Of a stretch of 19,616 nt of DNA, positions 18,001-19,616 are shown in pieces; positions within the stretch are counted from its first letter, which is position 1, and every line of letters begins with the position of its first letter. The stretch is from an uncultured Dehalococcoidia bacterium (GTDB lineage: Bacteria; Chloroflexota; Dehalococcoidia; Lucifugimonadales; UBA3495), in assembly GCA_950072105.1 (NCBI GenBank), contig CATMOE010000062.1, positions 1 through 19,616 on the forward strand, read 5' to 3'. Made by a program: the position numbers.

Positions 18001-19616
18001 ATCAGAATAATCCCGGTGGCGGGGAGAAAAGCCTCGGGCGCGGCGGTCCTATCCGGAGAGCCATGGCAAATAATGGGTCAGTGATGAGTGCCTTGGAAGC
18101 CGAATCCTTTGGCGTCCGCGGCGATAAGCAGCTCAGGACGGTTACCCCACCTTCGAAGGAAGCGCCCAAAGTTCTTTCGGCTCAGCTCATCCCGCTGATT
18201 CTCGTCCAGTTCGGTCCATTGCCGATGCTCGTGCCGGACAAAGGGCAGGGAGCCGTCCGAGACGATGCGATATCCCTTGTCTTTGAACTGGAAACAGTAG
18301 TCTATATCCAAGTTACGGTAGAAGCGGAAGCACTCCCGCATCAGTCCAACGGTAGACACTAATTCCCGCCGGAACGTCATGCAGTAGGCTTGCATGGCGT
18401 CGGCTTCCCCTTCCTCCACCTCTTCATGAAAGTGCTGTAGGTCATCCGTGGACAAGCCATAGGGTCCGAAGATGCCGATCGACTCTTCGGCCAGCCGTTG
18501 CCCGATGGGGTCGAGGATGTTGCCGACGATCTCGGTCGAGCCGTCCAACATGATTATGTTTCGGCCTAGACTTTGCTTGAGAGCGATATTCTTCCCCGCG
18601 GCGTCTCCCACGTTGTGGTCGCAGTGGATCACCCGCAAAGTGTCGTGGGAGGATTGGAATTCCTCTAGCCATTCGGCCGTGCCGTCGGTGGACCCGTTGT
18701 CCACGACGATTATCTCGCTGGAGTAGTCTCCCGAGTACTTGAGCATGCTGCTGACGCAACGCTCCACGTCTCCCGGATGGCCGTATGCGTTGAGAACGAA
18801 GGAAAAGTCGTATTTGTCGGGCTGATCCAGAAGCGACTCCACTTCACGGGAGGACGAGACTGAGGCCCAACGCTCTCGTTGCTGTTCCAAGGGTGTCTTG
18901 GGGCGGATACGCGCTTCTTCCAGGGTGTCTTCCAGCAGGAACCCCTTGGAGAGAATGTCGGCGCGCAGGGCGTCGGCGGCCGTGTAATCGGCCTCCTGGC
19001 GCAGGCTGCCCCGCTGGCCCACCGAGGCGGCTACCGGTTCAGGCACGGCGTATTCCACCGGTACTTGATCCAGGTCAAGGCCGTAGATGCTGTCGTACTC
19101 CAACAGCAGCGCTAACTTGGCTTGTCCGGGAAGGCTGGAGCGCACCATGTCCCATGTTTGTGCCAGCGCCGCCGGCATGTCCAGATCGTTTTCCACCGCG
19201 GACCAGAATTTCTGGCGCCACTCGTCTGTCTCGGGAGGAAGCTCGTCCAGCGGGGGCAACCCCTTCCAAACCCAGATACGGTGGCGGAGGTTGGTCAGCG
19301 CTTTTTCGGCGGCCTTTAGCGAGGTAAAGGTGAAGTTCATCCGGTGGCGGTAGCGAATCGTCAGGCAGAGGTAGCGGAAGGACAGGGGAGCGAACCCCCG
19401 GGAGATCAGTTCATCAAGAAGGAATACGTTGCCCGAAGATTTGGCCATCTTGGCCCCGTCGGCCAGCAGGTGTTGGGCGTGGACCCAATATCGCACGTGA
19501 GGCTTGCCGAAGGCGGCCTCGCTCTGGGCGATCTCGTCCTCATGGTGGGGGAATATGTTGTCCACTCCCCCGGTGTGGATGTCGAATTCTTGGCCCAGAT
19601 ATTTTTCGGCCATGGC

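What a model noticed while it worked through the whole genome (the two positions that open the first line are those of the whole stretch)
18078..19616. Second cysteinyl-tRNA synthetase fused to a family-2 glycosyltransferase, conserved across SAR202
Besides its housekeeping CysRS (g206) the genome encodes a second, HIGN-type CysRS whose C-terminus is a GT2 glycosyltransferase domain (~740 aa; here cut across the ends of C22 and C62). The fusion is near-universal in the family, suggesting a cysteinyl-sugar conjugate made outside translation.
Evidence so far: g1743 (C22:3-740) and g3102 overlap at the contig ends. The GT2 part matches in 32 of 40 order genomes and 22 of 23 other family genomes, always in one 734-801 codon frame that also holds the CysRS match. 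HIGN, Zn ligands, KMAKS and the anticodon-binding region are kept in 7 full-length relatives. meaB follows in 21 of 26 loci. Paper search found nothing.
(Added by a program. Inside this text positions count along the whole contig: contig position 1 is position 1 of the stretch shown here. "Call 12" and the like, gene names such as g00115 and contig names such as C1 are that model's own, and its searches are not shown. The text may have been shortened before it was handed on; [...] marks where a part breaks off. The agent that wrote the report below was given it as the finding of a first reader that could run no searches.)

Follow-up and report, generated by a model that had tools for sequence, protein, structure and literature searches.

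The report
tRNA-Cys-reading glycosyltransferase with dedicated synthetase
A marine Chloroflexota bacterium keeps a second cysteine-tRNA synthetase fused to a sugar-transferase-like domain, and relatives carry that domain with only the tRNA-Cys anticodon reader and lose its active site when the extra synthetase is lost, which points to an undescribed enzyme that works on cysteine tRNA.

Summary
The fusion is real: one frame holds CysRS and GT2. The gene is cut at a 77-nt contig overlap and is whole in 31 of 39 relatives. It is not SAR202-specific: 93 of 400 Chloroflexota genomes carry the GT, only 27 of 300 in the class. meaB is family synteny (0 of 49 loci outside).

Key addition: short forms keep only the CysRS anticodon-binding domain plus GT2, with four anticodon-contact positions invariant in 170 of 170. 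In one family the GT motif YRNxD is intact in 26 of 26 genomes that keep a partner CysRS of the fusion's clade and in 2 of 41 that lost it, while the anticodon reader persists in all. So the GT binds tRNA-Cys and its chemistry is coupled to a dedicated synthetase; a tRNA-free MshC-like route is unlikely.

Best guess: glycosylation of Cys-tRNA-Cys (0.35); any tRNA-Cys-dependent reaction about 0.75. No activity is shown, and eight paper searches found no description. The scan noted the short form before on another genome (e1-6685363).

The parts
18078..19616 (-). 3' two-thirds (512 aa) of the CysRS-GT2 fusion gene; the 5' part is C22:3-740
   Evidence: whole 733-aa ortholog in G001 (L037:7001-9199), 97% identical over the GT part
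19305..19616 (-). C-terminal part of the class I CysRS catalytic domain (aa 1-104), with Zn-ligand His (19545-19547) and Glu (19533-19535) in FPHHEDE
   Evidence: PF01406; alignment to E. coli CysRS 1li5/1u0b
19437..19451 (-). KMSKS-type motif (KMAKS)
   Evidence: translation; alignment
19047..19304 (-). helical bundle (DALR-like) region of CysRS
   Evidence: alignment; helices in the full-length model of G001
18900..19040 (-). CysRS anticodon-binding domain (CysS_C-like); R-x3-R-x4-Y-x3-D-x2-R-x11-D at 18927-19013, aligning to E. coli R423, R427, W432, D436, R439, D451
   Evidence: R427-G34 contact and D436/R439 mutants in passages of PMC4536326
18147..18812 (-). GT-A fold, family-2-like glycosyltransferase domain
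   Evidence: PF00535; model pLDDT 91.7; VIA Z 20.1 (rmsd 4.4, 229 aligned) to PcManGT and 18.6 (rmsd 3.6, 207 aligned) to SpsA
18537..18545 (-). D-x-S at the place of the metal-binding DxD motif
   Evidence: Ser in 154 of 170 short forms; per-row table
18306..18320 (-). YRNLD motif with the presumed catalytic Asp (D248 of alignment A1)
   Evidence: Asp invariant in 64 rows; motif lost with the partner CysRS
18222..18233 (-). HEHR motif, presumed part of the active site
19540..19616 (.). 77-nt exact overlap with the start of contig C22 (assembly break inside the gene, at the FPHHE stretch that resembles the other cysS)
   Evidence: contigs of other runs also break at 19506-19538
16741..17742 (-). 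meaB GTPase gene downstream; synteny marker of the family, not part of the system

Best explanation
A two-step, tRNA-Cys-dependent enzyme. Step 1 (inferred from intact residues): the dedicated CysRS activates cysteine and charges tRNA-Cys. Step 2 (inferred): the GT-A domain, held on the tRNA by an anticodon-binding domain, transfers a sugar from a nucleotide-sugar, probably without a DxD-bound metal, onto the cysteinyl group (most simply the thiol) of Cys-tRNA-Cys. This gives a glycosyl-cysteine that is released or parked on the tRNA. The private synthetase would hand over charged tRNA before EF-Tu takes it, the logic of LysX and ErdS. Shown here: the architecture, the conserved anticodon reader, the GT-A fold and the coupled loss of GT site and partner synthetase. 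Not shown: tRNA binding, any activity, donor, acceptor or product. The umbrella claim (the GT acts on tRNA-Cys or Cys-tRNA-Cys together with this synthetase) I put at about 0.75; the confidence below is for this specific chemistry.
For: Short forms have CysS_C and GT2 but no catalytic domain: CysS_C hit in 15 of 16 scanned, 6 above the Pfam cut-off, no PF01406 in any; reader motif in 19 of 19 tested; R13, R17, D26, D41 in 170 of 170. 87 of 93 GT-bearing genomes hold a CysRS of the same 'DVGH-insert' clade. Family f69: YRNxD intact in 26 of 26 with the partner against 2 of 41 without, although the partner-less genomes checked encode another CysRS. All 8 genera with both states agree in direction, and the label needs 12 changes on the tree, at least 4 forced. 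In G706 both genes are broken side by side. What is lost is the presumed active site (Y222, Y244, R245, N246, H273, H275, S290), not the fold. Cys/Zn/ATP residues of the fused CysRS are invariant. The full-length model (pTM 0.87) matches tRNA-bound CysRS 1u0b best, TM 0.86 of the target.
Against: The GT follows the anticodon-binding domain after a short linker (D41 to D94 spacing 31-57 aa), and both models are confident as single bodies (pTM 0.85 and 0.87). No residue marks the partner's amino-acid pocket as special. In f47 and f61 the DVGH enzyme is the only anticodon-bearing CysRS found, and 20 of 107 genomes with it lack the GT. G697 and G753 keep YRNxD with no partner found. DxD is D-x-S and the N-terminal nucleotide motif is variable, so a nucleotide-sugar donor is not assured. 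No conserved sugar, export or release gene lies nearby.
Confidence: 0.35

Rival explanations
1. tRNA-modifying glycosyltransferase: the GT puts a sugar on a nucleotide of the tRNA-Cys anticodon arm, and the partner CysRS is kept because it is the synthetase that can charge or present the modified tRNA.
For: GT attached next to the anticodon reader; basic presumed acceptor site (R228, R245, H273, H275, R276, R286 conserved); coupled loss with the partner; no pathway neighbours.
Against: The tRNA-Cys loop (Y32 U33 GCA A37 A38) is the same in genomes with and without the GT. G000 has MiaA and MiaB but no MiaE match (genome 92% complete), so no hydroxylated A37 is evident. The partner's reader residues are the same as in other CysRSs, so the need for a special synthetase is unexplained.
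Confidence: 0.25
2. The GT-A fold is a cysteinyl transferase: it takes Cys from Cys-AMP or Cys-tRNA made by the partner and moves it onto a sugar or onto an anticodon-loop nucleoside (GluQ-RS-like logic).
For: Explains the strict need for a catalytically intact partner, the loss of the metal-binding Asp and the variable nucleotide motif.
Against: I know of no GT-A enzyme that transfers an acyl group (recalled). The fold and catalytic Asp are those of ordinary GT2 enzymes, and GT2 enzymes can work without metal or a full DxD (WrtF, passages of PMC12595478).
Confidence: 0.15
3. tRNA binding is regulatory: the GT works on an unrelated glycan or metabolite and is switched by charged or uncharged tRNA-Cys; dead copies are tRNA-binding pseudo-enzymes.
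For: Reader, fold and surface arginines persist in dead copies in two lineages.
Against: Does not explain why the active site decays exactly when the partner synthetase goes.
Confidence: 0.12
4. tRNA-independent MshC-like ligase plus GT making a cysteinyl-sugar thiol.
For: No MshC-like paralog was seen among the listed PF01406 matches of the 39 order genomes (22 matches not listed), and G000 has no BshC match, so it might need another thiol route. The partner coupling fits any two-enzyme pathway.
Against: The anticodon reader is kept even on the GT alone. Real MshC-like genes lack it and co-exist with the system in seven families.
Confidence: 0.08
5. Passenger fusion: a spare translational CysRS with an unrelated GT2; the reader on short forms is a fission scar.
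For: DVGH-type CysRS serves alone in 20 of 107 genomes; the fusion is patchy in the class.
Against: A scar would not keep four contact positions in 170 of 170 proteins or outlast the loss, on average, of about 9 of 14 GT site residues.
Confidence: 0.05

Closest known systems
Bacterial CysRS (TIGR00435 cysS; E. coli 1u0b; B. burgdorferi 3sp1 type with the DVGH insert)
   Same: Cys/Zn ligands, HIGH- and KMSKS-type motifs, helical bundle and anticodon reader all kept; full model TM 0.86 to 1u0b.
LysX (LysRS-MprF) and ErdS (AspRS-DUF2156)
   Same: A dedicated synthetase fused to an enzyme that uses its product (passages of PMC9437257).
   Different: Second domain is a soluble GT-A fold, not DUF2156/MprF; it has its own anticodon reader in split forms.
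MshC (TIGR03447)
   Same: CysRS paralog linked to sugar chemistry; same Cys-AMP step (passages of PMC9736012).
   Different: MshC apparently works without tRNA (passages of PMC2922099). The MshC-like proteins fetched are about 400 aa with no reader motif and form another clade.
GluQ-RS (YadB)
   Same: Synthetase-derived enzyme that acts at a tRNA anticodon (Table 1 of PMC9437257).
Queuosine glycosyltransferases QTGAL/QTMAN; glycocin S-glycosyltransferases SunS/ThuS (all recalled, no call)
   Same: Glycosyltransferases that put sugars on a tRNA base, or GT2 enzymes that put sugars on a cysteine thiol.
   Different: QTGAL/QTMAN are eukaryotic and act on queuosine, which tRNA-Cys is not known to carry; SunS/ThuS act on peptides. 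To my recall none carries a CysRS domain.
WrtF (GT-A fucosyltransferase)
   Same: Among the top structure matches; GT2 scaffold that works without metal and with a changed DxD (passages of PMC12595478).
   Different: O-antigen enzyme, about 20% identity, different DxD change (G-x-D against D-x-S), no tRNA reader.

Membership tests
Cysteinyl-tRNA synthetase | Zn ligands Cys, Cys, His, Glu; HIGH- and KMSKS-type motifs | tested here: met
   C28, C220, H245, E249, H37, G39, K280 invariant in 48 fused rows; 78 of 81 frames keep all motifs
Cysteinyl-tRNA synthetase | C-terminal anticodon-binding domain with the G34/C35/A36 contact residues | tested here: met
   R423, R427, D436, R439, D451 invariant; aligned to E. 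coli
Cysteinyl-tRNA synthetase | Charges tRNA-Cys with cysteine | not testable with these tools
   needs an aminoacylation assay
MshC | No anticodon-binding domain; about 400 aa; MshC clade | tested here: not met
   reader present; fused proteins form a clade (99) inside the DVGH CysRS clade, apart from the MshC-like clade (100) (quick tree)
MshC | tRNA-independent ligation to GlcN-Ins | not testable with these tools
   assay needed
GT2 / GT-A glycosyltransferase | GT-A fold and PF00535 match | tested here: met
GT2 / GT-A glycosyltransferase | Metal-binding DxD | tested here: not met
   D-x-S in 154 of 170 short forms and in the window; metal-free GT2 enzymes exist, so this lowers 'canonical', not 'active'
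GT2 / GT-A glycosyltransferase | Catalytic Asp at the xED position | tested here: met
   D248 invariant in 64 rows, 166 of 170; its role is inferred from position
GT2 / GT-A glycosyltransferase | Sugar transfer from a nucleotide-sugar | not testable with these tools
   assay needed
LysX / ErdS aaRS-transferase fusions | DUF2156/MprF aminoacyl-transfer domain | tested here: not met
   no such Pfam hit in 7 full-length fusions; the second domain is PF00535
GluQ-RS | Synthetase lacking the anticodon-binding domain | tested here: not met
   domain present
Queuosine glycosyltransferases (QTGAL/QTMAN) | Sequence membership and queuosine substrate | not tested
   recalled only; paper search returned 0

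The most novel reading that the evidence does not exclude
A bacterial glycosyltransferase uses a borrowed synthetase anticodon reader to pick tRNA-Cys and, with a private CysRS, makes a sugar-bearing tRNA-Cys or sugar-bearing Cys-tRNA-Cys. That would be a new tRNA-dependent reaction in marine SAR202 and soil Chloroflexota (and, by Atlas taxa, some Actinomycetota), with catalytically dead, tRNA-binding offshoots arising repeatedly.
Probability: 0.6. Interest if true: 0.92.

Novelty: categorically new. Interest (0 to 1): 0.82.

Why it matters
I recall no bacterial glycosyltransferase that acts on tRNA or aminoacyl-tRNA, and the review passages read list no such CysRS paralog. Both main outcomes would be new chemistry: a glycosylated aminoacyl-tRNA or cysteine glycoside, or a sugar modification of a bacterial tRNA. 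The system is kept in genomes as small as 1.3-1.5 Mb (G006, G037, G038) of a marine lineage that my recall rates as abundant in deep water. It is one or two soluble proteins, so a single in vitro experiment can decide. It also shows a tRNA-specificity module reused outside a synthetase, which could serve to label tRNA-Cys.

Tried and rejected
Complex prediction of the G324 partner CysRS with the GT domain: no verdict (ipSAE 0.01, 0.01); not used as evidence either way.

tRNA-Cys comparison: the first pattern had the wrong spacing and gave only chance hits; the second showed the same loop in 40 GT-positive and 40 GT-negative genomes, 76 of 80 with a match.

Search for partner-specific CysRS residues: only clade-level differences. 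Rfam scan of 8 sources: no T-box or other leader, only an RNase P RNA and a tRNA. Plasmid collection: no match. Metagenome locus search for Actinomycetota context: the alignment was unusable and P0201 found no relative, so that context is unseen. Cluster-member names could not be queried.

Six RNA runs hold the stretch, but the two laid are contigs and may be DNA, so expression is not shown. meaB as a functional partner: rejected. Hydroxylated A37 as acceptor: no MiaE match in G000. The careful CysRS tree did not finish; the quick tree is cited.

Rows dropped before counts: generic GT2 hits G051, G100, G139, G361, G386 and G149, G304; 11 CysRS hits under 245 bits; split or partial copies G706, G727, G741; short loci L103, L104, L113 and fusion L134 (no motif by regex) not used in A1. 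Paper searches with no description of the fusion.

Full report
Observation. Window 18078-19616 (-) is one 512-aa frame, open at the contig end, with the end of a CysRS catalytic domain (PF01406, aa 1-104) and a GT2 domain (PF00535, aa 273-359). The last 77 nt of C62 equal the first 77 of C22, whose bases 3-740 encode the N-terminal 246 aa. The break lies at the FPHHE stretch that is 85% like the other cysS. Other assemblies break at 19506-19538 too, and one 13,168-nt contig runs through (possibly the source DNA). G000 has a separate 460-aa CysRS at C2:16255-17634. Of 40 related genomes 32 match strongly, 22 of 23 in the family and 9 of 16 other families of the order. All 31 fetched are single ORFs of 725-786 aa. 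G032 probably has it cut by a contig end; G020 has only a duplicated ordinary cysS.

Range. Close relatives are named Dehalococcoidia or SAR202. In an even sample of 400 genomes of the phylum 100 matched; after removing 7 generic GT2 hits, 93 carry the family GT. In the class only 27 of 300 do, nearly all in long frames of 726-850 codons (one partial, 242), and five families of the own order gave 0 of 16. All 18 long-frame loci L117-L134, from other classes, were CysRS-GT2 fusions. The ESM Atlas lists CysS_C+GT2 clusters whose commonest phylum is Actinomycetota, on 6-19 members with a record. G383 and G184 are unpublished genomes: G383 is one of the 93, 87 and 107 below, G184 one of the 107 and 20; no claim needs them. 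meaB follows in 20 of 22 family loci and 76 of 80 close loci, but 0 of 49 outside the family. No neighbour is shared across families.

The minimal unit. Many matches are 300-340 aa proteins without a catalytic domain. Of 16 scanned, 15 hit the CysRS anticodon-binding model CysS_C, 6 above its cut-off (the genome's own normal CysRS scores only 19.4 bits), and none hit PF01406. The motif R-x3-R-x4-[WYF]-x3-D-x2-R-x11-D was in 19 of 19 short loci tested (3 of 22 not tested). It aligns to E. coli R423, R427, W432, D436, R439, D451. Passages of PMC4536326 give R427 as the G34 contact and D436 and R439 as residues mutated to alter anticodon recognition; the roles of the other three are recalled. In 170 of 186 short database proteins with that region aligned, R13, R17, D26, G36 and D41 are 100% conserved (the set is rich in one lineage, named Limnocylindrales). 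A leftover of gene fission would not keep these positions, so I infer that the GT itself binds tRNA-Cys.

Structure. The full 733-aa model of G001 has pLDDT 89.2, pTM 0.87; its best match is tRNA-bound CysRS 1u0b. DxD is D-x-S (154 of 170), the N-terminal nucleotide motif varies, the presumed base D248 is kept in 166 of 170, and YRN and HEHR are family marks. WrtF shows that a GT2 can work without metal or a full DxD (passages of PMC12595478).

The synthetase. Cys, Zn and ATP residues are invariant in 48 fusions. On a quick tree the 20 fusions form one clade (99) inside a clade of CysRSs with a DVGH insert (100), apart from the ordinary SAR202 CysRS and from ten reader-less MshC-like proteins. 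87 of 93 GT genomes hold a DVGH CysRS; 20 of 107 DVGH genomes lack the GT, 19 of them rechecked with a profile. In f47 and f61 it is the only reader-bearing CysRS found, so this clade can presumably serve translation. No special pocket residue was found.

Natural experiment. The 6 GT genomes without a DVGH CysRS are all in family f69. In 81 f69 genomes, 70 have the short form and 26 the partner. Among 67 whole copies (G706, G727, G741 dropped as split or partial), YRNxD is intact in 26 of 26 with the partner and 2 of 41 without. Both histidines are kept in 24 against 3, and the mean of 14 site residues kept is 13.8 against 4.8. All 8 genera with both states point the same way. The label needs 12 changes on a quick tree, at least 4 forced. 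Six of the 26 partners are not adjacent to the GT gene, so this is not a matter of one deletion. In G706 both neighbours are broken. Lost positions are the presumed active site; fold, reader and surface arginines stay. The six partner-less genomes checked encode another CysRS. The 6 short copies from f58 show the same decay with the same R-to-K change at the 439 position, although their genomes hold an unfused DVGH CysRS. Caveats: the genomes are 88-97% complete, G697 and G753 are exceptions, kin are not independent, and the order of loss is unknown.

Mechanism. Shown: architecture, reader conservation, fold, coupled loss. Inferred: tRNA-Cys binding, Cys activation by the partner, and a reaction that needs both (about 0.75). 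The likeliest chemistry is sugar transfer onto the cysteinyl group of Cys-tRNA-Cys handed over by a private synthetase (0.35). A sugar on an anticodon-arm nucleotide (0.25) fits the short linker (31-57 aa) better but explains the partner worse. The tRNA-Cys loop is alike in carriers and non-carriers, and G000 has MiaA and MiaB but no MiaE match. Cysteinyl transfer by the GT fold (0.15), regulatory tRNA binding (0.12), a tRNA-free MshC-like route (0.08) and a passenger fusion (0.05) remain.

Literature. Searches of the held library found no description of the fusion or the short form; most subscription papers are not in it. I saw passages only of PMC9437257 (its table lists CysRS* and MshC as CysRS paralogs, LysX and ErdS as fusions), PMC2922099, PMC5388404, PMC10424219, PMC9736012, PMC4536326 and PMC12595478, and only the listing of PMC4351081. 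No supplements were read; those of the two synthetase surveys could list the architecture. QTGAL/QTMAN and SunS/ThuS are recalled. Databases label the domains automatically but give no function. The scan noted the short form on another genome (e1-6685363); I saw that, and it is not independent support.

Verdict. The feature is real and wider than reported. It fails membership of MshC, LysX/ErdS and GluQ-RS and works, in logic, like LysX/ErdS. All parts are known; the combination and the implied reaction are not described in what I could search. Interest 0.82.

Noticed in passing
G000:C23:17631-22111: Array of 29 tRNA genes on one strand, with GC like the genome; looks like a tRNA array unit; no tRNA-Cys called in it.
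   Followed up: no
L217, L219, L221, L232, L235, L238, L245, L247, L249, L251: MshC-like CysRS paralogs of about 400 aa without the anticodon reader in seven Chloroflexota families; suggests a mycothiol-type thiol outside Actinomycetota.
   Followed up: partly
L108-L112, L115 (family f58): Short reader+GT copies with a decayed active site, conserved between a mannose-1-phosphate guanylyltransferase gene and oligopeptidase F; some genomes also have the intact fusion.
   Followed up: partly
L372 (G706:C1:2355500-2359500): Partner CysRS and short GT both broken, tail to tail.
   Followed up: partly
window 4294-5397 and 5422-6519 (-): Two tandem, similar ORFs that look like FMN-dependent alpha-hydroxy acid dehydrogenases (label recalled, not scanned).
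   Followed up: no
window 6889-10260 (-): Three-gene 2-oxoacid:ferredoxin oxidoreductase-like operon behind a GntR-type regulator at 10314-11120 (labels recalled, not scanned).
   Followed up: no
window 2979-3503 (-): ORF resembling a REP-associated tyrosine transposase fragment (label recalled).
   Followed up: no
G056:C33:106911-114838, C5, C28: About six tRNA-Cys-like matches in one genome without the GT, four within 8 kb.
   Followed up: no
G000:C5:40412-40508: tRNA-Sec gene; selenocysteine as a substrate of the second CysRS was not examined.
   Followed up: no
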